A DNA stretch of 64,000 bases, from assembly GCA_964035545.1 (NCBI GenBank), contig OZ037765.1:15624995-15688994 (forward strand). Reading direction: 5' to 3'. The translations under genes were made by a program, and so were the position numbers. The DNA is from Bugula neritina. Taxonomy: Eukaryota; Animalia; Bryozoa. Below, piece by piece: positions 1 through 34,200 of the stretch; position 1 is the stretch's first letter, and every line of letters starts with the position of its first letter. A model generated the notes under the pieces. That model had not been told where the DNA came from. It ran no database searches and saw nothing but the letters and a program-made list of their open reading frames with translations.

Positions 1-174
1 ACCATTCTGGCTGGTGCTGGCCCCGGTCAGGCCCTGCGGGTGCCCCCAACGCCTGTGGGGCAGGGCTGGAGTAGCGCTGATCAGGACCAGGGACAGAAAA
101 GACGACCCCAATACCAGGGGGCGTTAAACTGTCACGGCCCGCGGACACTCTCCCTCCCCGCGGGCCGCAACTGA
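1..174 (+). CDS. gag: C-terminal end of gag of Gypsy copy A (partial)
   Basis: Frame 1 is open from base 1 to TGA 172-174, lies upstream of pol, and contains the slippery heptamer in the expected phase. Confidence 0.6.
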   Translation, partial: TILAGAGPGQALRVPPTPVGQGWSSADQDQGQKRRPQYQGALNCHGPRTLSLPAGRN

Positions 175-180
175 AGGAGT
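123..180 (+). promoter_or_regulatory. Putative -1 programmed ribosomal frameshift signal (G_TTA_AAC, 5-nt spacer, 10-bp GC stem-loop)
   Basis: GTTAAAC at 123-129 is in gag phase. CGGCCCGCGG (135-144) pairs perfectly with CCGCGGGCCG (158-167). The gag stop follows, while the -1 frame stays open to 476. Confidence 0.75.
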
Positions 181-475
181 ATGGTGGAACACGCCGTCGT
201 CTGTCCGTACGGACACAACGGAACACTCCACCCAAGTGGCAGGTACCACGCAGGACTAGTAGGCCCGCACAACGGCCAAGTACCTTCTCCCTGCCACTCG
301 CTAACCGGTTTCACCGGTTACCTCGGGAAGAGGAGCCCGCCACTGAAATGGAGCCGGAAGGCCCAGTGGAGAGGCCCGAACCCCGCCGGCACCAACCTCG
401 CCGCCGGAAGCCCCGTAAACCACGGGTGAAACCCCCGCCGTCCTGCCAAACCAGGACAGCACATGCGGGGGGGGG

Positions 476-3400
476 GTGAAAGTACAACCACATGGAGAGA
501 GCTATTTCCTACCCGGAAAGGTGGCCGGCAACGCCGTCACTTTCCTGCTCGACTCCGGTTGTACTACCAACCTTCTCAGTCGTAGAGTCTTTGAGGCACT
601 GCCCCGCCGGGACAGGGATAGAGTACGACCATATACGGGGGAACATGGCACCCTGGCAGACGGGTCATGTATTCCCTTTTATGGTATTATCGAGCTCCCT
701 GGGCGTGTCCGAGATCAGGCTGTACAGGAGACCTTTATCATAGGTCAACTGGAGGAAGATGCTATCCTCGGAATGCCCTTCTTGAAGCAACACCAGTGCC
801 GAATAGACTTTAGTAAGTCGGTGGTGCTGATGGGCGGGCGAGAACTCGCCTGTGTGGATAAGTTTGGGCGTCCTCTGGTGGGCGGTGTTCAGGTAGTTCG
901 AAACTGCACCGTACCCGGACGCTCCAGAGCTACTATCCACTGCCGAGTGAACAGCAACCGGATAGCCAGGCTCGGGGTCGTTGAAGGCGCGCACGAAAGG
1001 ATCCAACTCGCCAGTAGTTTAAACCGACTAACTGAGCGAGGGGAGGTCTTAGTGCAGTGTGTCAACCCCTTTACCGAGCCCATTGAGCTCCCAGCTGGGT
1101 CAATGCTGGGCCGGTTCCACTCCGTCCAGGAGGAGGACGTGGGCCCGTCGCTGGGTGACGCGACGGAGGCACCCCCTCGACACCCTATTCAGGGACGAGG
1201 GGCAGTCCCAACACATCTCCGGGAGTTATACGAAACAGCCAGTGGCGGCTGCGCGAGTAACCGAGAACGCCAAGCTATGGCTAAGTTACTACGCGACTAC
1301 GGTGATGTGTTCAGCAGCGGAGAGCATGACGTGAGACTGACTGGAATTGTCAGACACGAAATACCGCTGACTGCAGGGACAGTCCCTGTCCGGCAGCCCA
1401 CGCGCAGGCTGGGGCCGGAGAAAGAGAAGGAGGTTAGCCGACAAGTACGGGATCTTCTGGACCGGGGACTGATAGAGCCCGCCCATAGTGCGTGGAGCTC
1501 GCCAGTCGTACTGGTCCGGAAGAAAGACGGCAGTTGGCGGTTCTGTGTGGACTACCGCAAACTCAATAGCGTAACCATACAGGACGCCTACCCTCTACCT
1601 CGTATTGACGAGTCATTGGACGCCCTAGCCGGCAGCAAGTACTTCAGTACGTTAGACTTGCTAAGCGGCTATTGGCAGGTTCCTCTGAGTCCCGACGCCC
1701 AAGAGAAAGCGGCGTTTATCACACGGGACGGTTTGTGGAAGTGGAAGGTGCTGCCCTTCGGGTTAACCTCCGCCCCAGCCACCTTCCAGAGGCTGATGGA
1801 ACAAGTCCTTAGCGGACTCCATTGGAAGACACTGCTGGTCTACCTCGATGATGTCATCGTAATCTCTCCAGACTTCGAGACACATGTCAGTCGTCTGCAG
1901 GAGGTTTTCGAGAGACTCCGAGGTGCCGGTCTTAAGCTCAAACCTTCCAAGTGCGCTCTGTTGCAGCCGGAGGTCAAGTACCTGGGGCACGTTGTCGGTC
2001 GAAACGGCGTGGCAACGGATCCCGAAAAGGTACGGGCAGTAGAAGACTGGGTCACCCCCCAAGACTTGACCGGACTCCGGGCTTTCTTGGGGCTGGTAGG
2101 GTATTACAGGCAATACATACCAGACTTTGCGGGCATAGCCCAGCCGTTAAACCGGCTCACCGCAAAGGGAGTGACGTGGCAGTGGACTCCAGTCGAACAA
2201 GAAGCGTTCGACCGCCTCAAGTGCTGCCTCCTAACGGCGCCAATCTTGGCCTACCCAGACCCCACTCTGGAGTACATCCTAGACACGGACGCCAGTGACC
2301 AGAATGTTGGCGCTGTGCTGTCACAAGTGCAGGAAGGCCGAGAGGTAGTAGTAGCCTACTACAGCAAGTCCCTCTCTCCCGCTGAACGAAATTACTGCAC
2401 TACCCGCAAGGAGCTGCTGGCAGTAATCAAGTCAGTGAAGCACTTCAGACCATACCTATATGGCAGGAAGTTCCGGCTGCGTACGGATCATGCCTCGCTG
2501 ATCTGGTTGTGCAGGAGAGCAGAGCCCTCTAGTCAGGTCGCCCGGTGGCTCGAAATCCTAGCTGAATTCTCATACCGGATCGAACATCGACCGGGCAAGA
2601 GACACAGCAATGCGGATGGGTTGAGTCGCCGACCTGACGGAGGTTGCAAACAGTGTCTCAACATCGAGAGGAGGGATGGAGGTCCCCCACGATGCGAGTT
2701 GGAGACGCTGGCTCATCACGGAGCACCGTTTGACTGGGATCAAGGTCAACTCAGGCAAAGAGTTGATGAGTCCCCGGAGGATGTACAAAACCTTCGCGCC
2801 AACCCTGTACTGGCCGGTAATGTTCGAGAGCTGACGAAGCTCCAAGAAGAGCTGCCTGGAGTCGTGGCAGATATATACCGGGCCAAAAGGGAAGGGCGAC
2901 GACCCAGCGAGGAACGCATACGACAGGGATGCGCCGAGTTCCGGCTATACTGTCAGCGTTGGGACTCGCTGCGGATCGGGCAGGATGGGTTGCTAACCAT
3001 CTCTCCAGCTGCCAGCGACAGACACCCGGAAAGGAAGAGGGTAGTCTGCCCCACGGCCATCCGCCGTGAGTTGATTTGGGATACTCACAAACAGGCCCAC
3101 GCAGGGGTCAAGAGAGTGATATCCAAATTACGACTCCGGTGGTATTGGCCGCCGATGGAGCGTGACGTCCGGCTCAGAGTCAAACAGTGTGAGATCTGCC
3201 AGGCCAGTAAGCATAGCCGCCCCCCTGGTGAAGCAGGACGGCGGAGGCTATATGCTGGTAGGCCCTGGCAAGTAGTCGCTGTAGACCTGGTCGGACCCAT
3301 GCCCCTGACCCCCAGAGGCAATAATTGGATCCTAGTACTAACCGACCACTTTACTAGGTGGGCGGATGCTCTGGCTATCCCAGATGCATCAGCCCCAACA

Positions 3401-4750
3401 GTGGCCAGGGCGCTAGACCAACATGTATTCTGTTATTTTGGGCTTCCCGAACAGATACACTCTGATCAAGGCGCTCAATTCCAGTCTCAACTGATGAGCG
3501 ACCTTTGCCACCTCTGGGGAGTAAATCAGAGCAGGACCACCCCCTACCACCCTCAAGGTAACGGGGTGGTGGAGCGCAACAACCGGATGCTAGGTGATGC
3601 ACTCCGGAGTCTCCTCCTTGGACGAGGTCAAGAGGAATGGGATACGGTGTTGCCGCAAGTCATGCGTGCATACCGTAGCACCCCACACACCAGTACTGGT
3701 GAGACCCCAAACCTCTTGATGCTCGGGAGAGAGACTCGTGTCCCTGACCATCCCACCTATCACGTTCCAGAGCAAGACAACTCGGTTCACGAGTATGCCA
3801 GTGAACTAGTGGAACGGATGAAGGCCGCACACGATATACTGCGTCAACAGCAGTGGAAGGTGCAGCACGAAGATTCCGATGAACCACCTCTCTATCAAAC
3901 GGGAGATAAGGTGTGGATGGTCAATTACCGTAGGCGTCGCGGACAGGCTGATAAACTGAAGCCTAAGTTCGTAGGCCCCTACGTGGTCGTCGAGGCTATG
4001 CCCAATCATACGTACAAGATTGAGCGCTCAGGACAGGTGTCTGTCCAGAATGAGTCTCGCTTGAAACCGTATTGGGCTAGCCCTGACGGAGTGGGAGAAG
4101 CCCCCCCGTTGTTAGAGCCCAGGAGGCAGACAACGACGCGCGGGCGACGGCGGCATGGACCTGAATACGAAGTGGTCATACCGCGGGAGGAAAACTTGGT
4201 GAGAGAGGAGCGGCAGCTTTTGTCAACAGAAGCGTGTCCGCCACCGCCAAGTCTAATTCCATCACTTCCAAAAACCGAGCCGGTTCCGGAAGTGCAAACC
4301 CCCACGGAGGGAGGGGCTCCATCCGGAGAACAAGAAGAGGTGACCGCTAACGGTGAAGTAGAGACGCCATTAGAGGCCCCTACTAACGAACCGGCAAGCG
4401 TGTCACCCCCCCTAGAAAGGGGACAGCGTACGAGGAAACCCCCACCGTATTTGAAAGACTTCGTATGTGACTGCATTAGAAGCGGCGCACATGAAAGTCT
4501 AGGGGAAAACCGTACGATAAAATGTTGGAGTTGTGAACCCCACGCAAATATCAACTTTTGCGAGGGCGGAATAGTGGGAGGAATTAATGCGCGTAAAGCA
4601 AATAGTTCCGACCTCGTGCCTCAGAAACGATGCTCAGCCTTTTCTTATGCTGACATCGCCAAAGGCAGACGTATCTCACAACCAGCTCCAACCTTACCAA
4701 GAACGTTGAGTATGGACATTAATACCGAGTTCCCAGGTAAGCCAGTATAA
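476..4750 (+). CDS. pol: Gypsy Pol polyprotein (protease, RT, RNase H, integrase)
   Basis: Motifs FLLDSG (protease), WRFCVDYRKLN/LPFGL/YLDD (RT), DTDAS/TDH/NADGLSR (RNase H), H..AH..C..C plus VDLVGP/HSDQG/VERNNR (integrase) and GPY. Confidence 0.97.
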   Translation: MKVQPHGESYFLPGKVAGNAVTFLLDSGCTTNLLSRRVFEALPRRDRDRVRPYTGEHGTLADGSCIPFYGIIELPGRVRDQAVQETFIIGQLEEDAILGMPFLKQHQCRIDFSKSVVLMGGRELACVDKFGRPLVGGVQVVRNCTVPGRSRATIHCRVNSNRIARLGVVEGAHERIQLASSLNRLTERGEVLVQCVNPFTEPIELPAGSMLGRFHSVQEEDVGPSLGDATEAPPRHPIQGRGAVPTHLRELYETASGGCASNRERQAMAKLLRDYGDVFSSGEHDVRLTGIVRHEIPLTAGTVPVRQPTRRLGPEKEKEVSRQVRDLLDRGLIEPAHSAWSSPVVLVRKKDGSWRFCVDYRKLNSVTIQDAYPLPRIDESLDALAGSKYFSTLDLLSGYWQVPLSPDAQEKAAFITRDGLWKWKVLPFGLTSAPATFQRLMEQVLSGLHWKTLLVYLDDVIVISPDFETHVSRLQEVFERLRGAGLKLKPSKCALLQPEVKYLGHVVGRNGVATDPEKVRAVEDWVTPQDLTGLRAFLGLVGYYRQYIPDFAGIAQPLNRLTAKGVTWQWTPVEQEAFDRLKCCLLTAPILAYPDPTLEYILDTDASDQNVGAVLSQVQEGREVVVAYYSKSLSPAERNYCTTRKELLAVIKSVKHFRPYLYGRKFRLRTDHASLIWLCRRAEPSSQVARWLEILAEFSYRIEHRPGKRHSNADGLSRRPDGGCKQCLNIERRDGGPPRCELETLAHHGAPFDWDQGQLRQRVDESPEDVQNLRANPVLAGNVRELTKLQEELPGVVADIYRAKREGRRPSEERIRQGCAEFRLYCQRWDSLRIGQDGLLTISPAASDRHPERKRVVCPTAIRRELIWDTHKQAHAGVKRVISKLRLRWYWPPMERDVRLRVKQCEICQASKHSRPPGEAGRRRLYAGRPWQVVAVDLVGPMPLTPRGNNWILVLTDHFTRWADALAIPDASAPTVARALDQHVFCYFGLPEQIHSDQGAQFQSQLMSDLCHLWGVNQSRTTPYHPQGNGVVERNNRMLGDALRSLLLGRGQEEWDTVLPQVMRAYRSTPHTSTGETPNLLMLGRETRVPDHPTYHVPEQDNSVHEYASELVERMKAAHDILRQQQWKVQHEDSDEPPLYQTGDKVWMVNYRRRRGQADKLKPKFVGPYVVVEAMPNHTYKIERSGQVSVQNESRLKPYWASPDGVGEAPPLLEPRRQTTTRGRRRHGPEYEVVIPREENLVREERQLLSTEACPPPPSLIPSLPKTEPVPEVQTPTEGGAPSGEQEEVTANGEVETPLEAPTNEPASVSPPLERGQRTRKPPPYLKDFVCDCIRSGAHESLGENRTIKCWSCEPHANINFCEGGIVGGINARKANSSDLVPQKRCSAFSYADIAKGRRISQPAPTLPRTLSMDINTEFPGKPV

Positions 4751-4767
4751 GTCTTGTATTCCTATTC

Positions 4768-5841
4768 ATGGAAACGGGCTCGATGCCAGTAAATTCTGAA
4801 CTAATTCAGCAGATTGAATCAGAATTACTGGGAACCACGTTTCATGTGAATGACGATGAAGACACTGTAATGGCCGATGGTCTGTTAGACCTGGAGCTAG
4901 ACACTGTTCTTGGTCAGTCCACACATGATTCATCAGTTCCTCGAGTGCATTCCAAAAGCTGTGACTCTCAGGCTAGCAACGGTCGACAGTCACTAGAATT
5001 ATGTTGTAAAGATCCACCGCAATCTAACACTAATTCTACTTTTGTAGACACACTCGCGCCCGTCTCTCCGGGCATGCCTTCTCTAGAGATGGCGTGGGAC
5101 CCAGAGCCGGCCCCAACAACTTCTACAACCAGGCAACTGCCACCCCAGTTGGAAGCAACCTCCAACTGGATTACCCCTGCCACAGAGAGAGAGATCAGGA
5201 CCCATCAAGGAGGTGAGAGTAATCGTGAATGCAACCTCTGCCAGCAGCGATTCACGACCCACCGCAGACTAAAAGTACACTTGCCGCAACACTACATCAC
5301 CACTTTCTGCCCTTGCGGAGAATATAGCTACAATCGTGATTACCTATTGCGGCTCCAACGTACTATGCAGTGTTATCAAGGGCATGTCTATGAAGTAGAC
5401 GAATCATCCTATCCTGCCTTCCTCAACGCCATCAAACCACTCATCACTGACTCAGCTCGGCTATCTCGCCTGGAGCAAGGCTTCCCTTCCCCGCGACCCA
5501 TCATCTCTGGAGCCGCAGATAAACCTACACAGTCTACTAACTCTCCACCTCACAGTCCTCTACGCATGCCGCATACCTTTCCTCGTGTCGTACTACAGAG
5601 GGTAGACACAAATGCATATACACTCCCTCCTCCCCTTCCATCCTCAGAGCGGAAAAGACATAGACAGCCGGTTTCCTCTCGCTCGTCCCCCTGGGCCCGC
5701 AACCTACGTGAAGTAGAAGCTAGGGCACACGACTTGGAGCAAGAAGTGTACAGACTGGCCCCACGGGTGCAGGCTGCATCCAGTGAACTCAAATATTTAC
5801 AGGAGTCTATTAAACGCATGAAGCGTGCGGCCCGCAGTTAA
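4768..5841 (+). CDS. Gypsy accessory ORF3: acidic N-terminus, C2H2 plus C2HC-like zinc fingers, basic patch, C-terminal coiled coil (357 aa)
   Basis: ATG ORF between the pol stop and the PPT. Contains CNLC-x12-H-x3-H and FCPCG...C. Homologous translated blocks occur in copies C and D. Confidence 0.85.
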   Translation: METGSMPVNSELIQQIESELLGTTFHVNDDEDTVMADGLLDLELDTVLGQSTHDSSVPRVHSKSCDSQASNGRQSLELCCKDPPQSNTNSTFVDTLAPVSPGMPSLEMAWDPEPAPTTSTTRQLPPQLEATSNWITPATEREIRTHQGGESNRECNLCQQRFTTHRRLKVHLPQHYITTFCPCGEYSYNRDYLLRLQRTMQCYQGHVYEVDESSYPAFLNAIKPLITDSARLSRLEQGFPSPRPIISGAADKPTQSTNSPPHSPLRMPHTFPRVVLQRVDTNAYTLPPPLPSSERKRHRQPVSSRSSPWARNLREVEARAHDLEQEVYRLAPRVQAASSELKYLQESIKRMKRAARS

Positions 5842-6092
5842 CTTGAGTCTACCTACAATTCCATACTACTCATTCCCTACCGTAATGGTGGCACGTACTC
5901 TACATGTAGATAGGACCTTCTCTTGCTTATTACTTAGTGTGCACGTTATATATACCTGTATATTTTTTATCAGTTGTTGTTTTTTTTGTATATACTTTTA
6001 TACTGTTCTCTTACCCCCCCCACCACGAAGTATACGTTTTTTTATGTGAATTTTATTTTATCAGAAAGTGGGCTTTCTGCTGGAGGGGGCAG

Positions 6093-6398
6093 TGTGGTGG
6101 CTCGTGGAGCTACCAGCAACACAATACGCAAGGTTGCGTATTGACCCGGAACAATGTATTAGCCAATTAGCTAGGCTGTTTTATAAGTAATAGTAGCCGC
6201 TTCGCGCTACTAGCTCAGTTGAGGATAGTGCTGTAAATTAAATAGACGTGCGTATCATTACTGTTGTACATTAGATTTTATTATGTATTCTTGTATTAAA
6301 ATATAACGATATCTACTCGACTTAACCCGGTGAGGTTTCTCTAGTGATAAACAGACTCTCTTGGTGACACATCAACCCTAAATCTGAAAACTATAACA
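6093..6398 (+). repeat. 3' LTR of Gypsy copy A (306 bp)
   Basis: TGTGGTGGCT...CTATAACA directly after the PPT. Both ends match the reverse-strand LTRs at 27985-28319 and 31793-32131. Confidence 0.9.
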
Positions 6399-7009
6399 CT
6401 ATTCATATTCACATTGTAATCACAGCGAAGCCTAAACTTCATAGCTTTGTATTTACGTGCATGAGTAAGTCTTAAGTTTTTTAGTTTTATTTGCAAAAGA
6501 AATGTGTTTAAAAATTTTACCATTAAACAAAACTAAAAAAATGTACACATAAAGAAAAATAAAAAAATAAAATAACAAAAGTGGCAAAATTTTCCCTTTA
6601 TAACTTAGATAAACTCGCGGTACCGATCGCGGCATAATGATGTCCATATGATTCCCTAAGATTTCCTATATATACCACTCTGACGCTGTGCGTCTACGCC
6701 ATTTTCCGGGGTCAATAATACCCTGTGGTTGCCATTGTGATTGTTGTTGTGAACGTTCACATTGTGATTGTAATTCAAATTATAGCTAATTGACTTGGAG
6801 CTTGACAGTGGCCATGGGTGTGATACTGACTGCCATATCACTACATACATAGTTATACTATTAGTATTACTATTACTATAGTGATTGTCTATAACTATAA
6901 CTGTATAAGTATTAGTATAACTATAAGTATAAGTGTAAGTATACTCATACTGTATAGTGTATAGGTATATTATAATTATTATTATATTTATCATTTATAC
7001 AATTGATGA

Positions 7010-7121: not shown

Positions 7122-10100
7122 ATGACTATGAGTATGACTTTGAGCATATAATCAGTAAATGTAATGATCATGTATCAGTATGGCCATGGGTAATAGGCAT
7201 AGTAAATGTAATACTATAATTTTGCTATAAGACAATAAGTATAACTATAAGTTAAAGTATAACTACTACTAGCCCTAGGCCTTTCAGTATCAATATGAAT
7301 AACTGAGTAACAAGACAAACTAAAGCTGAAACTCAATACTTTCAATTGGATCTTCAGCTTAATTTAGTGGTTTAATGATTGTAGTTTTCCTACAATAATA
7401 ATCATTAAAACGTAATAACATTATTTACTGTAATTATTATTTTATTGGTAAATCCTTTGAACTTGAAACTGAAACGTCATAGTCAAACGACTACTTTCTA
7501 GAAGTGATTGATTATAAACCCAGTTATAGTAATGTTTATACAAATAGAGGCCTTCTATTTGTAGCAATAACAATTACAATGTTTTAGTCCATAAATTACC
7601 AAATTTAAATCAAAGGATTTCAATTACTTAAGTCAATATGAATATAGCTTAAACTTAGTACTTGAAAGTCAAACTGCTAAAATGCTGTAAGTGTTTTTTT
7701 CAACTTATTAGCTTGGCATGCTTAATCTATTTACTTAATACTCATTGTAACGTCTACCCCAGTTTATTGATAACAGGTTGCACTGCTGGAATTTTGCTGA
7801 TATTTATTGAACTAACTGGTAACCAACGTGAAACTACAATAACACAATAATACGATTTAATAATATAGACATTATTGAAAGAAAAATGAAACATACAAAA
7901 ATTACAAAATTGTTGCAAAACAATGTTTAACATACCTCTATTACCCTTCCTGGGGAGAGTTAGAATTAAGTATATAAAATTGTGATGGTGAAAGTTTAAT
8001 CAAATAAAGAATGACTAGTTAGAACTGCAACAGTCAGTAGAGAAATGAAGGCATAAAACACCTTAGCTATTATAACTTTGCTAAAAGCTATAAAAAGCTG
8101 ACAGCTATTCTGTTAGCAAAATCATTGCATTGTAATAATGAAAACAAAGCTATTTGTGGTTTAAGAAAAAGCTGTGGCTATGTTAGTAGCTAAGTGAATA
8201 TGAGGGTGAATGGTATGCAGTAGTGAGTACTATAATAAAAAAATGATCAAAACGCTACACTTATCAACTATAAAAATTTGCTTGATGCAACCCGAATCAT
8301 TGAAGGATTTTCATCTAATCAATGACTTTATTTACGGAGAAATTGCTTTGACACTAGCTTAACTATGTTATTTTTGTTATAAATATGGTATTTTTAATTG
8401 ATTGCCTTAGGCTTAGTGGGCTTTGCGGTTTTTGGACACATGTAAGCTTTACTAATGTGATAGCCGAATTATTTTTGTTTGCAAGCTATATCCTGTGTTG
8501 TGTTTACATCGAGGCTATATTATATTTCTAGTTTTAGAGATCATATATATGTTGGGCATGCGTAGTGATATGCTAGTTATACTCGTGTGTGAGGATTTTA
8601 GTTCAGTGAAAATATATTTGATTGCTTATTTAACTCTGAGTAATTCTGCAATTAATACAATGCCACACCAATGACAATATAACATTGGCGACAAGTAAGT
8701 GTTAGCCTACGTTCTGATAGTATCTATTTTGGCTGCAAGCATAGCTATTCTTAGTTTTGGAGAGGGTACAGAAGTTGAGTCTTATTTGGAGAGATTAGAC
8801 TGGTATTTTCGGTTACCAAGACTACAGATGGGGACAGGGTGCCTATTCTACTTATGGGATTGTCAGCAACACCGTATCAGACACTTAGAGATTTGGTGTC
8901 TTCTGAAATACCTAAGGATGTTGCTTTTGCTAATTTATGCAAACTGTTAATCTCACACTATGGCAAAACCAATCAGTCCAGATCTATTTCTAGGAAGGAA
9001 GGTGAAAGCATAGTAGACTTTCAAATCCGGATTCGAAAAGCGGCCAGAGACTGTAAGTTTTGTAATCTGTTAGAGGATGATTTGTTGGAACAATTTATTG
9101 CTGGAGTGAACCATTCAACTCTTACTAGGAAGTTAGTTGAGAATGCTGACATTACCACACTAGCTGAAGCTATAGAAGTAGCAGCTACAGTTCAACTACT
9201 AGAAGGGGAGATGATTACTGCCACACCGACTGCTGCTAATAATGTTGCTAGAGTAACAAATTCTAAGAACAGAAAGACAAACACAACAAACAATAATAAG
9301 AAGACTCGTACTACTTCTATTAGGGACATAATCTGCTTCAGATGTTGTAGGGCTAGACATAAATTTAGTGATGAGAGTTGCCCTCCCTTAAGCAAGACCT
9401 GCAGAGACTGCAAGAAGACTGGACATGGATCCAAGTACTGCTGTAGTAAGACTACTTCTAAATCTACAGCTAACACTGTACAGCACACTCCTGTGGAGCC
9501 AGTTGTAACTCCAACGGCTGTTGACAGTTTCAGTAATCAGTTTGCAGTTAGAAATGAGAACAACTACAAGACTCCAAAATGTCAGGCTGCACTTGGTGGT
9601 AAGAGAGTGACGTTTCTAATAGACTCAAATGCTGTAGAAAATGTTATTGACAAACATACATATGAGCTGTTGAGTAATGACATAGTATTGCAACCTACTA
9701 CTAAGAGTTTGTATGCTTTTGGTCAATCAACTCCTTTACCATTGTTGGGTCAGTTTTTGTGCAGATAGTACTGTTAACTCACATACTTCTAAAGCGATAT
9801 TTTATGTTTTTGATGGTAGCGCATGTAATCTTATGATTGCAGAGACTGCTAGCAAACTTCATGTCATATGAAGCCTAACATGTGCAGTGTTATAGATATC
9901 AGTGATGCTGAGTTAGATAGTTGCGTAAAGGCACAGTACCCATAATGTTTCCGCGGTGTTGGCAAGCTGAAAGATGTACAGGTAAAGTTGCATATAGATC
10001 CTGAGTTCGAACCAGTTGCCCAACCAGTTAGACGGTTGCCATTTAACTATTGCAGTAGGGTTGAGAAAGCTTTGAACCAGTTAGTTGAGGAGGATATTTT

Positions 10101-12548
10101 TGAGCCAGTGCAGGGTGTAGCTTCTACATGGGTTAGTCCTTTAGTTGTAGTTCCTAAAGAAGGTGATGAGGTTCACCTTTGTGTTGACATGCGTAGAGCC
10201 AATACTGCCATCGTCAGAGAAAGATATTCGGTTTCTACCGTTCAAGAGATGCTTGTAGAGTTGAATGGTGCTTAGGTATTTTCTAAGCTAGATTAGCATC
10301 AAGGTTTCTTTCAGTGTGAGCTCGAGCTCTAGAGACATTACTACTTTTGTTAGCCATGTAGGTCTATTTCGTATGAAGAGGCTTGGAATGGGAGTGTCAG
10401 CTGCTCCTGAAGTATTCCAGTACACAATTCAGAAAATTATCAATGGTCTTAGTGATGTCTTAGATATGGCTGATGACATAGTTGTGTTTGGTAAGGATTC
10501 TGAAGAGCACAGAGATAGGCTAATGCAAGTGATGGCTTGCTTGTCAGAGTGTCACTTAACTCTGAATGTTGCTTTGGTTTGAGTTCCATCAAGTTTCTTG
10601 GTCATATTTTGTCTAGAGATGGCATTGCTCCAGATCCCTCAAAGGTTGAGTCAATTCTTGGTGCTAGACAACCAGAGACGGTCTCTGAGCTCAAGGGGTT
10701 TCTGGGTCTTGTGCAGTTCGTTGGTTGTTATGTCAAAGGGTTAGCCACAGTGGCAGCTCCTTTGTGGGACCTCACCAAGCCTAAAGCTACTTTTGAGTGG
10801 ACAGATATACGTCAGAAGTCTTTTGAGCAGATCAAGTCTTTGGTGGGGTCAACTCAGACTTTAGCTTACTATGATAAAATGCATCTACTACTGTGGTTGC
10901 AGATGCTAGCCCTGTGTGTTCTTATCAGTTTCAACAGGATGTGCCAAGAGTAGTTGCTTATGGACGTAGTCGGCTATCTGATGTAGTGTCAAGATATTCA
11001 CAGATAGAGCGTGAGGCACTAGGTCTCATGTGGGCCTGTGAATGCTTCAAGATGTACTTACTGGGTACAAAGTTTTAGTTAGTTACGGACCACAAGCCTC
11101 TAGTGAATATATTTGGTAAGCCTAAATCTAAACCGACACCTAGGTTAGAGAGATGAAGTTTGATACTCCAGGCCTTTGATTTTGCTTTAGAGTATAAGCC
11201 AGGTAGCAGTAACATTGCTGATTCTCTATCTCAGTTGAGTGTTTCTAAGGATGATGTTGTGGAACCTTCGACTGGTAACTCATACTTATGTACAGTTGCT
11301 AGCATGGCTGTCCCATGTGCTATGAGGTGGTCAGAGATTCAGAGTGCAGCTCAATCTTGTGAGGAGACTCAGGCTATACACAAAGCTATCGAGTCAAATG
11401 ATTGGAAAACTGTTTCTGCTGTGATTAGGTCTTTCAGAAATGAGATGAGTAGTCGAAACGGTGTAGTTCTCAGAGGTAAACGAATATTTGTTCCACAGAG
11501 TCTGAGGTCCAGGGCTTTATCTCTTGCTCATGAAGGACATGTAGGTATCGTAAAGAGCAAGAGTAGACCTAGGCTCAAGGTTTAGTGGCCTGGAATCGAT
11601 AGGGACGCTGAAAGCTTGTGTAGGCAGTGCTTGTCATGTCAGTTAGTTGGTTCTAGTGTTCCTCCTACTCCTATCACTCCCACTAAGCTACCAGGCGGTC
11701 CTTGGAAGTTCTGTAGTGTTGATTTACTTAGTCCCCTTTCTGATGGTCGTTCTACCATCATCTTCATAGATTACTATAGTAGACTATTTGAGGCTGGTTT
11801 TCTAAGTAATACTAAGACAGGCAAGGTTGTCTCAGTTCTTGAAAATGTCTTTGCTCGGTATGGTTACCCAGAGATTTTGAGGTCAGATCATGTTCCCCAG
11901 TTTGTTTCCAGTGAATTCCAGAGTTATCTTGCAGAGTGTGGTGTCAACTAGCTATCTACAACTCCATTGCGACCCCAGGCTAACGATCAAGTGGAGAGAA
12001 CTAACAGAGGTAATCTCAAGATGCGGAGAATTGCAAATTCTGAGTGTAGGAACTTGGAGCAAGCTCTGTTGAAATTTCTTATTGCTTACAAGTCTACGCC
12101 CCATGCGGCTACAGGTATGACACCTTATGCTATGATGTTCGGTTGTGAGATGCGTACCAAACTACCTATGCTCTTTAATGAGGTTGCTAAGACTGCTGAA
12201 GAGGCAGGAGACAGTAATGCTTTGTATAAACAGAAGATAAAAGATCAAACAGATGTTGGTTCTAAATATAGTCCTATAGGCCGATGCGATTTTGTGCTGT
12301 TGAGACGTGAAATTAGAAGTAAGCTGGATACTATGTATCATCCAGGGCCATACAGAGTCGTAAATGTTCAGGGTAGAGATATGACTTGCGTTGGTCCTGT
12401 TGGTAAAGTAGTTAGGCGCCATGTCTCTGTTACTCGTAAAGTTGTAGCGCCCGACCCTGGTCCAATAGTTGCTGATCCTCTTCTATCTTCATGTCCTATT
12501 TCTGTAGCTCCTGATGTTCCTGTTGCCCCGAGTTCTGTGTCTGGTTTT

Positions 12549-12641
12549 CCTGGTCTCAGTTCTAGTTTTCCTGGTCTCAGTTCTAGTTCTCCTGGTTTCA
12601 GTTCTAGTCCTCCTGGTCTCAGTTCTAGTTCCCCTGGTCCT
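12549..12641 (+). repeat. 21-bp minisatellite (CCTGGTCTCAGTTCTAGTTYY, about 4.5 copies) in the pol tail of copy B
   Basis: Direct tandem units encoding PGLSSS(F/S/P). Confidence 0.9.
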
Positions 12642-12856
12642 AGTGTTAGAGTCCGCGAGTGGAGAATACCGATACGATATCAAGATTACCATATGTACTA
12701 GTTCTGGGTACATGTGATCTGTGTTCTTTGTTCATTATAAATACTCATGCAATATGTTTTTTACATTATAAATACTCATGTAATATGTTGTTTACATGTT
12801 TTATTTTTCTTTAATAGTCCTGGATGGATATTGTGTTTACATCGAGGCTATATTAT

Positions 12857-25200: not shown

Positions 25201-28200
25201 AATTACATTAGGTCAGCTGGGGGGTCAGCAGGGGCGGAGCCAACTCACTGGTTAAGAGGAGTGTTATGTAATCACTCTCACCATGTGGAGCGCCCTTTCC
25301 AATTGTAACTGTTGACATGACAGCATGTATTTGTGGTCATTGGCAGCTACATGCTCTAAACAGACAGTATGGCTGACACTGTGATTGTCTTGGAGGGTAA
25401 GTCTACTAGTGAAACTCTGTTAATTAATTGAAATTTAGCCTAGCAGCCGACTACAGTCTCACTTTATCATAATGATAAAGTTGGACTCCTGACGTCAGGT
25501 GATTTCACTGACGACTTGGAGTTGAGCAATTACCCGGATGGTTTATGAAAACCAGGAGGCTGCTGATTATTCAACTCGGTCACAGTGTCGTACTGAATAG
25601 GTGGAGTCCCCTACAAGGGAGTGGTGATTCAATAACTGCTTACGATTGAATCCATGTGCTCTGTTGCAGATGAGGCCGCACCTGGGTCCCCCGGGATGCA
25701 GTCCTTATTAGATACCCTACTCCACAATAGGAAGAGATATCTGACACCAGCCTGGAACTGCTATCCGACCTACACTTTGGTACCTAGTCGGCCGAATAAC
25801 CACCACCCGTAGATGCTAGTACAATGCGGGTGACTTGTATGCAATGTAAACAAATGATTTTAAAGCATTGTATACCTAGGGTGTTTGACATTTTTAGATC
25901 AGATATTGTTTGATATTACAAATTTAATCTATCTATTTTAACACATATATTTGTATTTGTGATATTATTTTTTGTAAAAATATTAGATAGTGGGGTGGCC
26001 TAGTTTTTTTTATAGTATAGGTGGGTAAGTATGTGAAGATGCTAATAAAGCTGAGCCAGTGCCTTCATAAACTACAGGCATGTGTTCCAACCCATAATTT
26101 GGATCATTTGGATTTTAGTAAGAGCTGACTATAAGTGTATTTATATTGTGTAAGATGAGCATGTTATTATTATCCTAAAAGTTGAAAGGTTAACAGCTCT
26201 AACCAGAGTGGTAACAGTCAGCAAAACAAGTGATTAGTGGGATTCATATGATAGCTGCCAGCTTCAGCATAGCTCAATAACAAAAATCACAAAAATGCTT
26301 TGAAGTTTATGTTTTGTCAAATTGATCAAGAAAATTTTTTAAAAAGTTCCTGAAGCTGCTAATATGTGTGCTTATGCCAAAATATTATTCTCAAAAAAAT
26401 AAAACTTACACTAGCAATAGTCTTCACACAAACCTCAGATTTCTATTGGTTTTATGTGCCCTCTATGTACCATGGAGACTGCCCCTCAGCTTGGTGTGAG
26501 GAGACAATTTTGAAAATACAAATTCCCCTAAAGGGACATGTGAAAAGCATCTATTGGGGTAGATAAGAATGTATCGACTAAAATAAAATCCTTTCCATAT
26601 AAAACCTCCATCAGACCTGCAGTCCTGTGTGGTAATGAAGTCTGACCATAAGTCATAGCATGGGAGATAGGATGAACACAACAGAAATGAGAATGCTGAG
26701 GCATGGGATAATTTATGAAGTAAAAGTAGTATGGGCATGTTTGCAGCAGAGATGATATTTGCCTGGTTTTAAGTTATAGATCACTGATAACCAGAGAAGA
26801 AGCTGGCCCGACTTAGATATGAAAAAACATCATTGAATGCTATGACATTGAGCAAGATGTTCATTGCCGAGTCAGATGACGCTCACTTATTGAGCTTAGG
26901 GTTTACAAACCGGCTACACTTACAAGGCTACAGGCGTCTAGGCAGAAAGACAAGAAATTAATTGAGGTAGAAAGAAAATTGGCACCTTATTAAAAAAATA
27001 TGTAGTTCTAGTCAACCAGGTTTGTGAAAGCAACACTTAATGAGGCAACCAAATTTTGAATGGAATCTGCAATATTGATTCCAAGAGTGTATTTTCCTCA
27101 AGTTGTCCGTTAAACGATTTCTTAATTATAGAGTCTGTCAAAATATTGGTAACAGTTTAAAATTAGGTCCAGCAAAGTTTAGAGAGTGTACATAGGTCGT
27201 AGAGCAAGTCATTCCAAAGAAAACGAAATTTAATAGGCTAATAGCTTATTCAAACGGTCAACAAATAGGACGAATAGCGGACCAAAATGGCACGACGAAT
27301 GCGAATTTTGTTAGTTTTGGATCACGTGATCGGACTATTGCGTCAATTGCGCCCAACTAGCGTCCTTTGATTGGTCTGACAGTAGAAGAGTTTGTCAGTT
27401 TTGGATCACGTGATCAACTTTTCAAAATTTCGTTGGAACCAGACCCAGCAAGGTTTCAGGCAACGAATTTTTTCTGGTTGCACTCCATTGGCTCATTTCA
27501 AAAAGCAAAAAGCACGGGCATAATTCACATGGCAAACATATTGCTCAAGTAGCATTGCTTGTAACTAAATTAAATAATCAATATTTTAGTAACATTAATA
27601 ATAACAAATAATAATTAATTAAAACAAACAAATTTGTAGGAAGCATATTATTATGCTAGTTAGCAGTATCTTAAAATTATTTCAAGCAATTTTCATGACA
27701 GAAGTATGGTTTTTTTTATAGAAATTGTGAGAGCTTGACCAGCTGCATTGTATCAGTATGATTTTTGTGATCCTAAATACAAAGATGCACGTAGGCAACT
27801 GAGTTGATGTGCACAATGTGTAGCAGTGAACAAAAGTTAAGATGTAGTTAAATTGAAATTGATGCAACTAAATCATTTCACCTAAAGTAGACACTACGTA
27901 CGAACTTCTATTTTATTTTATAATTATTCCAGCTAAAACGTCTTAGCCATAGTTTTTTCATAGAGAACAAAAAATGGTGGATGTTGTTATATTTTTCAGA
28001 TTTGGGTTGATATGCAATCCAGAGAGTCTATTTATTTGCTAGAGAACTTCACCAGGATAAGTCGAGTTAATACGAGTATATTTTACACACAACAATACAT
28101 CACAAAAACTATACAAATACATTTAGTTAATTGCTACGTCTATACAATTCAACACTCTATTCTCAACTAACAGCGGGACAACTAACTACTACTACTAACT

Positions 28201-31200
28201 GTCAGTATTGCTAATTGGCTGTCCATTGTTCCAGGTCATCTACATGACCCCATGCTGCACAAAGGGGGAAATAATGTTTCCCTGTTATTACGTTGCTGGT
28301 AGCTCCACTAGCCACCACACCACCCCCACCAGCAGAAAGCCTTCTTTCTGATACAAAAAAATATTCGAAAATCAACGCACATAACATCAGTAGACCAAAA
28401 ATAATACAAATACAGATACATATACAACAATAGCAGACACAACCATTATAACAGTATGTCACATACAATTGGCTAGCTATAGAGAGAGAGTACCGCTAGC
28501 TGTGGTGTTGGACAAGGAAGATGAGCTGTCAAGCATTTACATGATAATAATGTCGTAGCCTTAGACTTCCAAGAGGGCGAGGCTTACGGATCATTCTAGG
28601 CAGAAGAACTAGAGTCAGTGTTTGGAAAGCTGATGTTTGGCTTGACGGGCACGTAGCTTCCGTTTAATCCGGCCTACAGAACCTTTTAGCTGGTAAAGTC
28701 CTGTTGTGGTACTGAGTAGATCCGGGGCCAGTTGGGTGAACTCAGCCTGCAGCCGAAGGAGGCGCTCCTCTACAGTGGCCAGGCGAGCAGGATCTGGAGA
28801 TGAGGTCCGCCGTCTACAAGGGGGGGGATCTGGAGATGGGGTCCGTCTTCTACGAAGGGGGGGGTGAGACTTCCTCTTCTTCTTCGGGGTAGGCGAACTC
28901 TTTGGGGATATACACAATCTGAGGGCGGTCAGATACCAATGGGGATTGCTGTCTCGCATTGTCTAGCACATGCTGGAAACCGGAGGTTAGGACGGCCAGT
29001 AACATCGCCTTCGCCACCAGGGGCCGTATTAGAGTCAGGAATTCCGGATAGAGATCAGCGTCTACTACATAATTCTCTCCCGAGAAACATCCAGCCGCTC
29101 GATGCCTTGTGACGGGGTAAGGGTAGACATCATTGTATCCGCATGGACAGAACGTTGATAAGAAGTGGGCATTGACATGTAGCCTCAAGGAGCGGTGAGA
29201 CGGGCACTCTTCATAGCAAATCTGGCACTGTGTTTTTGCTTTGGACCCCCAGGCCGCTTTTATCTTCCTCTCCGTCTCCGGTGTCACCCACCACCAGCGG
29301 CGGCGCAGCGGTTCAGGTCGTCCGCCATTGGTATACTCCTCGTGGTGTGGAGCGGGAGGTGCTCTATCACGTACCCTGGTTGCAGCAGGTCGAGTGTAAC
29401 CTGAAAGACTTTCAACAGCGTCAGTACAATACACTGTAGTGTTGTCGGCCTTGTACAGCCTGACAATTTCTCGTTTAGTTAGCACTCGTAGAGATTTACG
29501 GTAGTGAATAGTTGGCAGAACACACACTGCAGTGAGATTGTGAAGTCTCTAAGTCAATCTGAGTTCCTACCACTGTAGTTCACTACCCTATCTCCAGCTC
29601 AATTGACTCAGATGAGTCGGAGCTGAGTGATGCAATCTAGTTTCCATATCTAGACATAAATAACTCACCCCACGATCCGGTATCAAATGACATACTGAAT
29701 ATTTGTGAAATGGTTTGAACTATTGACTAGGAACACGTCTGCTCTTGACTGCATCAGCATAAGAAAAGATCGAGCAACGTGGTTGGGGTGCGTGACTAAG
29801 ACTTTGCACACCCGGCGGGTGAATTTTATTTCCAAATCCGCCGATACAAAAGTTGATTTCCCCGTGGTGTCGACAACTCCCACAATTGCTCGATACTTTT
29901 CCCGTATGGTCCCCCTCTAAACTTTCATACGCACTGCTTTTAACGCAGTCACATACAAATTTTTTTAAATATGATGGGGGTTGCCTCGTACGTTGTCCCC
30001 GCTCCAGGGGAGGTGGCGCACTCACCAGTGGACTAGTAGAGGCTTCTGACGGCGCCTCTAATTCACTGGTAGTGGTTACTTCTTCCTGTTCTCCGGATGG
30101 AGCCCCTTCTTCAGCTCCCGGACATTACCGGCCAAAACAGGGTTGGCGCAGAGGTTTTGTACAACCTCTGGGGACTCGTCAACCTTCTGCTTGAGTTGAC
30201 CCTGGTCCCAGTCAAACTGTGCCCCGTGGTGAGCCAGTGTCTCCAATTCATATCGCGGGTGACCTCCGTCCCTCCTCTCGATATTGAGACACTGTTTGCA
30301 ACCCCCGTCAGGTCGGCGGCTCAACCCATCCGCATTGCTGCGTCTCCTGCCAGGTCGATGTTCGATCCGGTAGGAGAACTCAGCTAGGACTTCGCGCCAC
30401 CGGGCGACCTGACTGGACGGTTCTGCTCTCTTGCACAACCAGATCAGGGAGGCATGATCCGTACGCAGGCGGAACTTCCTGCCATACAGGTATGGTCTGA
30501 AGTGCTTCACTGACTTGATTACTGCCAACAATTCCTTGCGGGTAATGCAGTAATTTCGTTCAGTGGGTGAGAGAGACTTGCTGTAGTAGGCTACTACTAC
30601 TTCTCAGCCTTCCTGCACTTGAGACAGCACAGCGCCAACATTCTGGTCACTGGCGTCTGTGTCGAGGATGTACTCCAGAGTGGGATCTGGGTAGGCCAAG
30701 ATGGGTGCGGTCAGTAGGCAACCCTTGAGGCGGTCGAACGCTCCTTGTTCAACCGGGGTCCACTGCCACGTCACTCCCTTTGCAGTGAGCCGGTTTAACG
30801 GCTGTGCTATCCCCGCAAAGTCTGGTATGTATTGTCTGTAATACCCTACCAGACCCTAGAAAGCCCGGAGTCCTGTCAAGTCCTGAGGGGTAACCCAGTC
30901 TTCTATAGCCCGCACCTTTTCAGGATCCGTCGCCACGCCGTTCCGGTGGCGGCGCCGGCGGCTGCGAAGGCTCATAGGCGGTACCTACTGGGGTTTGATG
31001 TTTCAGAGTTGCTATCAGTTTAGCCAACATGTCGGTCAGTTGGGCGACCTTCGATGCGACAGTCAACTGTGCCACAACAGCGGTCGTGGAGGGCTCCGCC
31101 TCTTGCTCGGCTGCTGTGTCCGCGGGCTCTATCTCCACTTGGCGGGAGTTCCCGCGATTTTTATGCATCTGGTTTGCCAGGAGATAAGCTTCCCCTTCTG

Positions 31201-34200
31201 CCAGAGCACCCTCGACTGTGGTAACTCCCCGAGCTAGAAATTGGTGGTGGAGTCCCAAGTCGTTGACAGACTGTACAAAGGCATCAAGAGTATACCTCTC
31301 ACGGTTAGCTTGAGGCAGATCGCTATACGCAATCTGCGCCAGCTTCATGACCGTGGTGGCATGTTCTTGAAGCGAAGTGTGGGGATCACGCCGCAGCCTT
31401 TGTAGACGGGCCCGGGCATCTATAGCAGAGATGCCGAAGCGGGCCCGCAGAGAAGCAAAGATACTATCAATGTCTAGGCCTAGCCCATAGGGTTTGGCCT
31501 TGTTCATCAATGACATTCTGAGCTTCAGCAGGGCCACCCTAGGTGGCCACTGGGCGACGTCCATTACGTCGCTAAACTCTTGAATGAATTGCTCCACTTC
31601 TTCTTCGCCCGTAAAGGTGGGCGCCTTCAACCGGTAGCGATCCTCATTCAGCTCCCGAGGAACTCTTCGCTCTTCTACCACATGATTCACAGGAATAACT
31701 TCATCTTTACGCTCACCTTCCACTGGCTGTGGTTGCATTCCAGCGTCTTCAGTCTCCATCTTGGATGTGCACTATCCCACTGCTGCCACCACTATTATAT
31801 TTTTCAGATTTGGGTTGATATGCAATCCAGAGAGTCTATTTATTTGCTAAAGAACTTCACCAGGATAAGTCGAGTTAATACGAGTATATTTTACACACAA
31901 CAATACATCACAAAAACTATACAAATACATTTAGTTAATTGCTACGTCTATACAATTCAACACTCTATTCTCAACTAACTAACAGCGGGAAAACTTACTA
32001 CTACTACTAACTGTCAGTATCGCTGATTGGCTGTCCATTGTTCCGGGTCATCTACATGACCCCGTGCTGCACAAAGGGGGAAATAATGTTTCCCCGTTAT
32101 TACGTTGCTGGTAGCTCCATGAGCCACCACAATGTGACTAATAGCTTATTCAGACACGACGACTAACGACTAACAATCATTGCACCTCTTTATCGCACCA
32201 ACTGCAGTAGTAGTGTATAGCTGCTTAGCAACGGTGATTTTACTAGTATAAAGTTGTTACTAGTTCAATTTAATCATAGTTGTGCGATAACAAAGTAAAA
32301 GTTTTGCGTTGATAAAATTATCAAATATGACAAATTTAAAATTTATTAGCTAAGCAAAAGTTGAAATTTTAGCAAATTTATGTTTAACAGTTGGACTGTG
32401 AAAAGTAAATGAAAATGACACATAAAACTGAATGCCGTGTTCATGTTTTTATATCTAACTCAAACTGATTATTTATTTTTTCATAGCCTTTTATTACTTA
32501 TTACTTATATTTTTTATTGTTGCTGAATAAAAAATTAACATGACCTGTTTTATATTATTTTCTCTATGAAAGAACTATAGCTAAAACGTTTTAGCTGGAA
32601 TAACCATAAAATAAAATAAAAGTTGGTACCTAGTGTCTACTTTAGGTGAAACGATTCACTTGCATCAATTTCAATTCAACTACATCTTGACTTTTTTTTC
32701 AAATCACTGCTACTCATTGTGCACTCAGTTGCTTACGTGCATCTTTGTATTTAGGATCACAAAGATTATACTGATACAGTGCAGCTGGTCAAGCTCTGAC
32801 AATTTCTATAAAAAAAACGTACTCCTGTCATGAAAACTGCTTGAAATAATTTTAAGATGCTGCTGACTAGCAAAATAATATGCTTCCTACAAATTTGTTC
32901 ATTTTACCTAATTATAAGTTAGTTACAAACAATGCCGCTTGAGCAACTTGTTTGCTATGTGAATTATGTCCGCGCTTTTTGCTTTTTGAAATAAGCCAAT
33001 GGAGTGCAATCAGAAAAAATTCGTCAGCTGAAACTTTGCTGGGTCAGGTTCCAACGAAATTTTGAAAAGTCGATTACGTGATCCAAAACGAACAAACTCT
33101 TCTACTGTCAGACCAATCAAAGGACGCTAGTTTGGCGCCATTGTTGCCATGGTCCGATCTCGTGATTTAAAACTAACAAAATTTGCATTCGTCGTGCCAT
33201 TTTGGTCCGCTATTCGTCCAATTCGTTGACTGTCTGAATAAGTTATAAAATGGATGGCCACCTGGTGTCGCGGTCCGTGATACCCAGTTTAGTCATGAGA
33301 GGGGGTTTTGACTAAAATGGGTGTTGAGAAAAATTTTCGTTTTATTTTCAGATTTTTAGACAGTTGTGACTGCTGAAACTATTATTAAATAAATCTTCAG
33401 TGAATAATAAACATCTCACAATCGTTTAAACCAAAAGACGTAAATAAAAAATGATAAAATTGAAATAATTATAACAAAAACCAAACTCATCAAAAGTTAT
33501 CTTTTTTATCAAAAATTGGATTTTCAATCAATTTTATTGTTATTGTTGCGATCATAGACATCCCGACTTATAAAACATATACTTTAAACTAGTAAAAACA
33601 CTGGGAGCAATACTGGAAAAACAAAAAAGATCACAAAGTTTAAAAAAATTAAATATTTTTGCGACATCTATTTTAGTTAAAATACCCCAGAATGACTAAA
33701 ATGGGTGTCCCAAGAGTTTCTGATTAGCATTTAACATTGAGGACAGATATAATTTTACAATTGACATCATTAAACTGCTTTTGCATTTTTACACCAACTT
33801 GGCTAATTAAAAAGTTTGAAACTGCAACACAAGAATAAATAAGATTAAATTCGTTGTGAAAATCCTTGGGGTCAAAAACTAGGGGGTGTCCGAAGAATTC
33901 AATACATGAATTTTAACCTAATTTTATTGGTATTTTTCAGTTTTTAGGCATGCTGACCTCATGAACCATATACTTTATTCTAGTATAAATACTGAGAGCA
34001 ATGTTAACAAACAAAAGTGTTTCCAAAGTGTGAAAATAAAACTAAAAAACTTTGCGACACCCATTTTAGTCAAAATCCCCCAAAATGACTAAAATGGGTG
34101 CCACGGTGATTTTTGCTTTATTTCTTAGCTTTTTGGATATTTTTGTCATTAATTTGATTGTTGATCAAACCTTTAGAAAAACCCTAATATATTATAATTG

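What the first reader, a model, noticed from the sequence alone, without database searches (positions are those of the whole stretch)
4768..5841. Gypsy lineage with a conserved non-env third gene: a predicted nuclear double zinc-finger/coiled-coil protein
Seen: a 357-aa ORF occupies the env position between pol and the PPT. It has no signal peptide or TM helix. It has an acidic N-terminus, a WITPxTEREI block, a C2H2 finger, a CPCG-type second finger, a YxVDxxxYPxFLxxI(K/R)PL block, a basic RKRHR patch and a C-terminal coiled coil. Copy C (28615-29527, minus) has the same blocks in the same order despite strongly diverged DNA, while its pol remnant is close to A. Copy D keeps APGSPGMQSL versus APVSPGMPSL in A. 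Known: metazoan Gypsy third ORFs are usually env (errantiviruses), and some TEs encode accessory anti-silencing factors (e.g. VANC in plant MULEs). Inference: this is a selected, fast-evolving accessory gene, possibly a dimeric transactivator or silencing antagonist. It is the best candidate here for an undescribed system.
Basis: partly seen in the sequence, partly recalled or inferred. Interest (0 to 1): 0.85.

Follow-up and report, generated by a model that had tools for sequence, protein, structure and literature searches.

The report
Retrotransposon's intron-switched zinc-finger accessory gene
A family of jumping genes in an invertebrate genome carries, where retroviruses keep their envelope gene, a conserved extra gene for an unnamed two-zinc-finger protein that likely regulates the element's own transcription, with a predicted optional intron that would add or remove its activation-like segment.

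Summary
The third gene is real and is not env: 357 codons between pol and the polypurine tract, with no hydrophobic stretch. It belongs to a large unnamed family (280 clusters at 50% identity; one named relative in the bryozoan Bugula neritina). The family has a confidently predicted core with a C2H2 finger and a CxC finger, a basic patch and a C-terminal coiled coil. Several relatives carry traces of Gypsy pol or the same 3' end. New here: all three related copies share a start codon, a 25-28 nt mini-exon and a 268-311 nt phase-1 intron-like stretch that contains the acidic N-terminus. This layout occurs nowhere else in the window, yet copy A keeps that stretch open and coding. Two isoforms are likely; no RNA junction was seen. 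Corrections: copy C is a broken mosaic, so 'fast-evolving' is not shown; copy D lacks the core; copy A lacks one zinc ligand. Best guess: a self-transactivator (about 0.4), with a Rev/CERV-like RNA regulator next. The scan had not seen this family, but noted different third ORFs in other genomes. Repbase and GyDB could not be searched.

The parts
773..4750 (+). Copy A pol from its first ATG (the frame opens further upstream): RT, RNase H, integrase, then a tail of about 100 aa with Cys residues
4712..4736 (+). Predicted mini-exon of copy A: ATG in the pol frame, 8 codons plus one base, then a phase-1 donor
   Evidence: the only GGTRAGY in 6085 nt of copy A
4737..5047 (+). Predicted optional intron of copy A (311 nt, GT..AG); open in the ORF3 frame and coding for the acidic N-terminus when kept
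4768..5841 (+). ORF3, long form, 357 aa
4771..4887 (+). Acidic, leucine-rich tile resembling an activation domain (aa 2-40)
   Evidence: the rule used is recalled
4961..4993 (+). Small predicted hairpin with a bulged A upstream of the acceptor; a similar one is in copy C (lead only)
5134..5487 (+). Folded core (aa 123-240): W-x4-T helix, C2H2 finger (aa 155-175), CxC-x12-H-x4/5-C finger (aa 181-202), VD strand and two helices
5650..5664 (+). Basic patch RKRHR, candidate nuclear localisation signal
5689..5835 (+). C-terminal helix with heptad pattern (aa 308-356)
6072..6398 (+). Polypurine tract and 3' LTR (6093-6398) of copy A
27985..32131 (-). Copy C: whole insertion with 96% identical LTRs, a 4-bp target duplication, a primer-binding-like site at 31788, gag and an internally deleted pol
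29401..29693 (-). Copy C predicted mini-exon (29693-29669) and intron (29668-29401, 268 nt, phase 1)
   Evidence: this in-frame acceptor failed the strict filter
28615..29400 (-). Copy C second exon: core, then a frameshift, then basic patch and coiled coil
25369..25810 (+). Copy D predicted mini-exon (25369-25396), intron (25397-25669, 273 nt, phase 1) and the stub of the second exon; no core

Best explanation
This Gypsy lineage carries a conserved third gene after pol whose product is predicted to be a nuclear protein that likely binds DNA through two tandem zinc fingers and likely activates the element's own transcription, while a predicted optional intron would switch its acidic activation-like N-terminus in or out. 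Shown: the gene, its place, its family and its conserved zinc ligands, and the splice-like layout in three copies. Inferred: splicing itself, nuclear location, coiled-coil pairing, DNA binding and the target (LTR or an internal promoter). With the intron kept, translation from 4768 gives the long acidic form, a likely activator. With it removed, the upstream ATG at 4712 would give a short form that has the fingers, basic patch and coiled coil but no acidic part, a likely damper of the long form. My odds: real element-borne accessory gene 0.93; intron really spliced 0.8; this mechanism about 0.4.
For: Family and selection: 280 clusters; ligands kept in 120-129 of 129 domains; codon-position identity A versus C 0.50/0.63/0.26. 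Fold: core mean pLDDT 93-98 in each 10-residue block of aa 121-240. The family profile matches tandem C2H2 arrays (HIC2, E 5.5e-8), and residues 145-202 overlay on DNA-bound finger pairs (ZNF217 Z 3.7, rmsd 2.8 over 51). Conserved basic residues lie on helix 1 (R/K166 109 of 129, R167 102 of 129). Activation-like tiles occur upstream of the core in 24 of 27 near and 13 of 33 farther homologues, against 0 of 32 and 2 of 51 downstream. A basic patch follows the core in 38 of 61. Splice layout: 3 occurrences on both strands of the window, all in these copies; 1, 11 and 8 of 3000 shuffles. The residue pair at the acceptor fits a phase-1 YAG in 53 of 53 near relatives.
Against: No spliced junction was seen and no binding site is known. 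Structural scores are low (Z under 4; no Foldseek match at E 0.001), and C2H2 fingers also bind RNA and protein (general knowledge). By my reading the conserved helix residues are not at the usual base-reading positions. The layout rule was drawn from these same copies. In one search, 9 of 144 column pairs reach 90% and 3 reach 100%, and the rows are kin. Copy C's in-frame acceptor failed the strict filter. The activation-domain rule is recalled and only compositional, and 3 of the 13 'farther' hits (P0036, P0037, P0061) are by their sequence near relatives. Element context could not be fetched for any outside relative.
Confidence: 0.4

Rival explanations
1. Rev/CERV-like RNA regulator: the protein is made from the spliced message, binds the element's RNA and lets intron-keeping genomic RNA leave the nucleus.
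For: The genomic RNA must keep a stretch with strong splice signals. CERV of Cer1 is a spliced, nuclear, Cys-rich, leucine-zipper protein needed for export and switched by Ser-Pro phosphorylation (PMC10309623). The basic patch here sits among 4-5 SP/TP pairs. A similar small hairpin lies upstream of the acceptor in A and C.
Against: No export-signal pattern in A or C, and in only 16 of 59 relatives. The intron folds no better than pol tiles (z -3.3 against -0.8 to -6.4). The acidic tiles are not explained.
Confidence: 0.2
2. Integration-targeting module: splicing fuses the finger domain to the end of integrase, in the manner of a chromodomain.
For: In copy A the donor is phase 1 in the pol frame, so a singly spliced RNA would fuse Pol to the core. 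P0101 and P0163 run from the pol tail in one open frame into ORF3 sequence, and P0171 and P0184 have an integrase-tail-like motif upstream of the core.
Against: The mini-exon has its own ATG in all three copies. None of 101 scanned homologues has an RT or integrase Pfam match. In unspliced A, pol stops at 4750.
Confidence: 0.13
3. Silencing antagonist: it binds element DNA or a piRNA/chromatin factor and lifts repression (VANC-like; VANC is recalled, not read here).
For: Nuclear features as above. Exchange of the 3' module between lineages would fit host conflict.
Against: No enzyme domain or known anti-silencing fold. No sign of rapid protein change: the core is 77% identical among six full-length relatives, like the N-terminus.
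Confidence: 0.12
4. A captured host zinc-finger gene carried as a passenger.
For: A Bugula neritina gene model holds the domain and shares an extra N-terminal stretch with P0153. P0057, P0087 and P0139 appear to hold the domain twice, so some members may be host genes.
Against: The gene is kept, with selection, across deeply split element subfamilies. Of the 30 proteins looked up, one cluster had an NCBI record. An intron-like layout is kept through reverse transcription.
Confidence: 0.05

Closest known systems
CERV of the C. elegans Ty3/Gypsy element Cer1 (PMC10309623; abstract and sections 6, 9, 15 read)
   Same: Retrotransposon-encoded accessory protein from a spliced message, with a basic NLS candidate, a leucine zipper and a Cys-rich metal site.
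   Different: CERV shares exons with gag, has a C4 loop, a ring-forming domain and a G-protein-like domain, and has no stated homologues outside nematodes. This protein has tandem C2H2-type fingers, an acidic N-terminus and its own start codon after pol. Direct sequence comparison was not done.
Plant 3' additional ORFs: Retand TRP28 and the Grande accessory gene (PMC11963269, passages; Grande only as cited there)
   Same: Extra gene between pol and the 3' LTR, nuclear or predicted DNA-binding, proposed regulator.
   Different: Those are antisense, plant-restricted, and TRP28 is a different domain (PF04195, not matched here).
Non-env ORF3s of bdelloid LTR elements, GDSL esterase and DEDDy nuclease (PMC5408684; abstract, opening part, discussion, passages)
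   Same: Animal LTR elements with a non-env gene in the env position; the paper notes that ORF3s are usually expressed from spliced messages.
   Different: Those are enzymes with no clear departure from neutrality; the text has 0 hits for 'zinc', 'C2H2' or 'finger'.
sORF1 of Drosophila MDG1-group elements (bioRxiv 10.1101/2025.03.14.642691, passages)
   Same: Nuclear accessory protein of an env-less Gypsy lineage.
   Different: About 110 aa, upstream of gag, predicted helix-turn-helix, unspliced.
Tandem C2H2 DNA-binding pairs (ZNF217, Kaiso, ZBTB, HIC2)
   Same: Finger 1 spacing and the geometry of the two fingers.
   Different: Finger 2 starts CxC and usually ends in Cys; extra helices and a strand wrap the pair; Pfam cut-offs are not reached in copy A.
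Retroviral transactivators Tas, Tax, Tat (recalled)
   Same: Proposed role, and 3' position with spliced expression.
   Different: No sequence or fold likeness found in the viral library; an analogy only.

Membership tests
Ty3/Gypsy LTR retrotransposon | RT, RNase H, integrase in that order after the protease | tested here: met
   the upstream pol frame aligns with the aspartyl protease of P0185
Ty3/Gypsy LTR retrotransposon | LTRs, primer-binding site, polypurine tract, target duplication | tested here: met
   complete in copy C; 3' end in copy A
A named Gypsy clade (such as MolGy1) | RT/RNase H tree placement with reference elements | not testable with these tools
   reference FASTA supplements unreadable; no loci fetched
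Envelope gene (errantivirus type) | Signal peptide and membrane anchor | tested here: not met
   highest 19-residue hydropathy 0.58 in A and 0.65-1.13 in four relatives; no dedicated signal-peptide predictor was run
Classical C2H2 finger (PF00096/PF13894) | C-x2-C-x12-H-x3-H spacing | tested here: met
   finger 1, aa 155-175
Classical C2H2 finger (PF00096/PF13894) | Pfam curated score | tested here: not met
   15.7 against 27 bits in A; 1 of 101 homologues passes (P0087)
CERV-type export factor | Made from a spliced message | tested here: inconclusive
   signals conserved; no junction in the runs laid
CERV-type export factor | H, M and G domains; homology to CERV | tested here: inconclusive
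   fold searches list only C2H2 pairs and generic coils; CERV itself was not compared
CERV-type export factor | Needed for export of genomic RNA | not testable with these tools
   needs cells
bZIP factor | Basic region continuous with the zipper helix | tested here: not met
   a Pro/Ser-containing gap separates patch and helix; bZIP matches only at E 0.7-10
Integrase C-terminal targeting domain (chromovirus-like) | In frame with integrase in the genomic RNA | tested here: not met
   pol stops at 4750; a spliced fusion stays possible
VANC-type anti-silencing factor | VANC domain and loss of silencing marks on its element | not tested
   recalled only; no Pfam match of any such name

The most novel reading that the evidence does not exclude
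A widespread invertebrate Gypsy lineage is a 'complex' retrotransposon: it encodes its own zinc-finger transcription factor, hides the activation domain inside a retained intron, and uses one splice choice to make an activator, a damper and possibly an integrase fused to the same fingers, a self-regulating circuit so far known mainly from complex retroviruses.
Probability: 0.25. Interest if true: 0.82.

Novelty: new variant of a known kind. Interest (0 to 1): 0.62.

Why it matters
Only a few animal retrotransposons are known to encode regulatory proteins, and CERV is the one with a tested function among the papers read here. A conserved, unnamed zinc-finger family in the env slot, with a clear predicted splice switch, gives a direct test of whether env-less elements control their own expression as complex retroviruses do. 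It also defines a new domain for annotation and may be a source of host genes such as the Bugula model.

Tried and rejected
No whole genome is held. Scans for outside loci found nothing usable. Metagenome contigs: 0 of 228 and 0 of 166 candidate stretches confirmed. Viral contigs: 0 of 54, 0 of 1, 0 of 7, and no match to a polypurine-tract pattern. Prokaryote genomes: 2 of 43, both 23-26 residue matches to finger 1 only, not followed up. So dN/dS across many copies and the fixed position after pol could not be tested on DNA.

RNA: no joint in four runs laid on 4640-5900. The one run on record as RNA gave 4 contigs, at 5071-5212 and 5493-5768; lack of cover elsewhere proves nothing. Homodimer prediction for the coiled coil of P0003 gave no verdict, score 0.20 against a mark of 0.32.

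Rejected ideas. Likeness among the three introns, which I first saw by eye, is not above shuffles (z at most 2.1). Special folding of the whole intron looked likely from z -2.45, -2.48 and -1.52 but was rejected against pol tiles. Rfam gave one chance-level hit. Repeats in 4400-6400 are unremarkable.

Fold and atlas searches. The wide fold search was filled by the C-terminal helix; the core was never folded alone because both prediction jobs went on the full protein. Atlas searches gave unnamed or generic C2H2 clusters. The tree (89 of 130 domains, 108 columns, midpoint root) has weak deep support and gives no direction of transfer between host and element.

Literature. Ten searches listed no description of this family. 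Passages of PMC2774666, PMC6238403, PMC8556966, PMC13269885, PMC6338049 and PMC5718144 gave none either. Supplements of the two clade papers were listed, not read, and bioRxiv supplements are closed.

Full report
Setting. The window is AT-rich animal DNA with a BTB-BACK gene fragment and many mobile elements. No genome is held, and the host is not identified. Runs holding a small share of the stretch include marine plankton metagenomes, whose contigs were laid on it. Three related Gypsy copies are present: A (plus strand, its 5' part outside the window, ending at 6398), C (minus, 32131-27985) and D (plus, about 20000-25830). Two other LTR elements in the window lack the third gene: the family profile hits only A and C in six frames.

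The observation. ORF 4768-5841 sits between the pol stop and the polypurine tract and has no hydrophobic stretch. C matches its core (E 1e-22) and coiled coil but is frameshifted between them; D has no core.

The family. A word search gave 30 then 37 proteins. A full profile search gave 280 clusters at E 0.001 or better, of which the best 150 were listed. Of 101 of these scanned, 97 have no Pfam match; three match C2H2 models and one an aspartyl protease. In 129 domains that cover the core (of 183 domain hits; rows include close kin), C155, C158, H171, H175, C181, C183 and H196 are kept in 120-129, and C202 in 103. Copy A itself has Leu at 196. Two AlphaFold runs give a confident core at aa 123-240 and a long C-terminal helix, with the rest low-confidence. 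The profile matches tandem C2H2 arrays, and the model overlays on DNA-bound finger pairs with low scores (Z up to 3.7, rmsd 2.5-3 over about 50 residues); Foldseek has nothing at E 0.001. One of 30 proteins looked up has a named cluster member: Bugula neritina KAF6040922.1.

Link to Gypsy outside this window. No DNA loci could be fetched, so this rests on read-through proteins. P0039 runs on into sequence like A's 3' untranslated region and polypurine tract (E 3e-4). P0185 joins a protease 42% identical to A's to the domain. P0128 joins the integrase C-terminus (69%) to ORF3 sequence. P0101 and P0163 start in the pol tail, and P0171 and P0184 carry an integrase-tail-like motif (P0171 p=0.025, P0184 not significant by alignment). 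That is 7 of about 205 proteins held, spread over near and distant branches; the rest carry no context.

Selection and rate. In the core, A and C share 50%, 63% and 26% of first, second and third codon positions; dN is 0.63 and dS is saturated: purifying selection over a long time. Their pol remnants have dN 0.029 and dS 0.41 (278 codons), and their LTRs are only about 68% alike. Silent sites that differ this much between regions mean C is a mosaic whose 3' module comes from an older-split subfamily; C groups with P0103, P0111, P0147 and P0187 (support 0.999). 'Fast-evolving' is therefore not shown.

The splice-like layout. Each copy has, near the end of pol, an ATG with A at -3, 8 or 9 codons plus one base, a GTRAG donor, and 268-311 nt later a YAG in phase with the finger exon. 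A rule describing this finds exactly three places on both strands of 64 kb, the three copies, and 1-11 of 3000 shuffles per region. The rule was made after seeing them, and for C it picked a different acceptor (29376), since the in-frame one (29401) has another AG close by. The three stretches share no detectable sequence but are all 43% GC. In 53 of 53 near relatives the two residues at the acceptor fit a phase-1 YAG, varying among V, L, S and D, E, A, G; 3 of 144 column pairs do as well. Five of the 16 listed pieces from runs X5 and X6 stop matching at 5047-5049, right at the acceptor (562 pieces not shown). No junction was seen, so splicing is inferred.

The same stretch is also coding in A's subfamily. 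It has 1 stop in the ORF3 frame (before the ATG) against 9-10 in the others, and it is 59% identical to six full-length relatives, like the core (60%) and unlike the linkers (36-38%). Of 26 listed differences in it 12 are silent, against 7.5 expected (p 0.04; the list is cut). In P0061, P0127 and P0163 the mini-exon region and the downstream ATG are in one frame, and D's intron length is a multiple of three. So two products are likely: a long one with the acidic N-terminus and a short one without. How the message starts is open. C has a phase-1 donor 14 codons into gag, which could feed the same acceptor as env messages do; A's gag is outside the window.

Mechanism. Tandem fingers, a basic patch (38 of 61 relatives), a heptad helix and acidic leucine-rich tiles upstream but not downstream of the core (37 of 60 against 2 of 83, recalled rule) are the parts list of a transcription activator. 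The simplest target is the element itself, and the intron would toggle the activation part. I give this 0.4. A Rev/CERV-like role (0.2) fits the retained intron and a small hairpin shared by A and C (51 of 53 relatives compatible, 5 of 122 column pairs as good), but export signals are not evident. A spliced integrase fusion (0.13) is allowed by phase in A. Anti-silencing (0.12) is untested, and a passenger host gene (0.05) fits poorly; the remaining 0.1 is for roles not listed.

Comparison and novelty. Non-env third genes are known: CERV (PMC10309623, abstract and three sections read), rotifer enzymes (PMC5408684, abstract, opening part, discussion, passages), plant TRP28 and Grande (PMC11963269, passages) and MDG1 sORFs (bioRxiv 10.1101/2025.03.14.642691, passages). 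None of what I read describes this domain or an intron holding an acidic N-terminus. Ten searches of the open library found no description, but Repbase, Dfam, GyDB and subscription journals were not searchable, and unread supplements may bear on clade naming. The scan has no look-alike by sequence; it has noted third ORFs with different described domains in other genomes, unchecked by me. Verdict: a new variant of a known kind, interest 0.62.

Noticed in passing
window 4430-4750 (+) and 30010-29720 (-): Pol runs about 95 residues past the usual integrase end motif, with Cys residues and an FSYAD motif shared by A and C; no Pfam match.
   Followed up: partly
window 31716 (-): Phase-1 splice-donor-like site 14 codons into copy C's gag, a possible 5' donor for the third gene.
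   Followed up: no
window 4709-4714, 25366-25371, 29696-29691: All three start codons follow AGT; in C and D the preceding base makes a CAG, so the mini-exon may itself have an acceptor, but A has GAG there.
   Followed up: no
P0203 (Bugula neritina KAF6040922.1) and P0153: Share an N-terminal stretch (E 2e-6) absent from the window; with the double-domain proteins P0057, P0087 and P0139 they may be host genes derived from, or ancestral to, the element gene.
   Followed up: partly
window 47887-52589 (+): Another LTR element with 98.8% identical terminal repeats and long gag-pol frames, without the third gene.
   Followed up: partly
window 8519-13461 (+): A decayed LTR element with 86% identical terminal repeats, also without the third gene.
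   Followed up: partly
window 13718-14470 (+): 250-aa ORF with a basic patch, a hydrophobic stretch and a coiled coil; probably a host membrane-protein exon, only weak Pfam hits.
   Followed up: no
window 37426-38223 (-): BTB-BACK (kelch-like) host gene exon.
   Followed up: no
window 41689-44360 (+): Fragments resembling a protein-primed B-family DNA polymerase (weak PF03175 match at 44043), possibly a Polinton remnant.
   Followed up: no
window 61605-62349, 56441-59027 and 17230-18038: Large inverted repeats (84-94% identical arms), probably foldback or miniature DNA elements.
   Followed up: no
window 73-4737 (+): Most 311-nt tiles of copy A's pol fold better than shuffles (z down to -6.4), while the second exon of ORF3 does not.
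   Followed up: no
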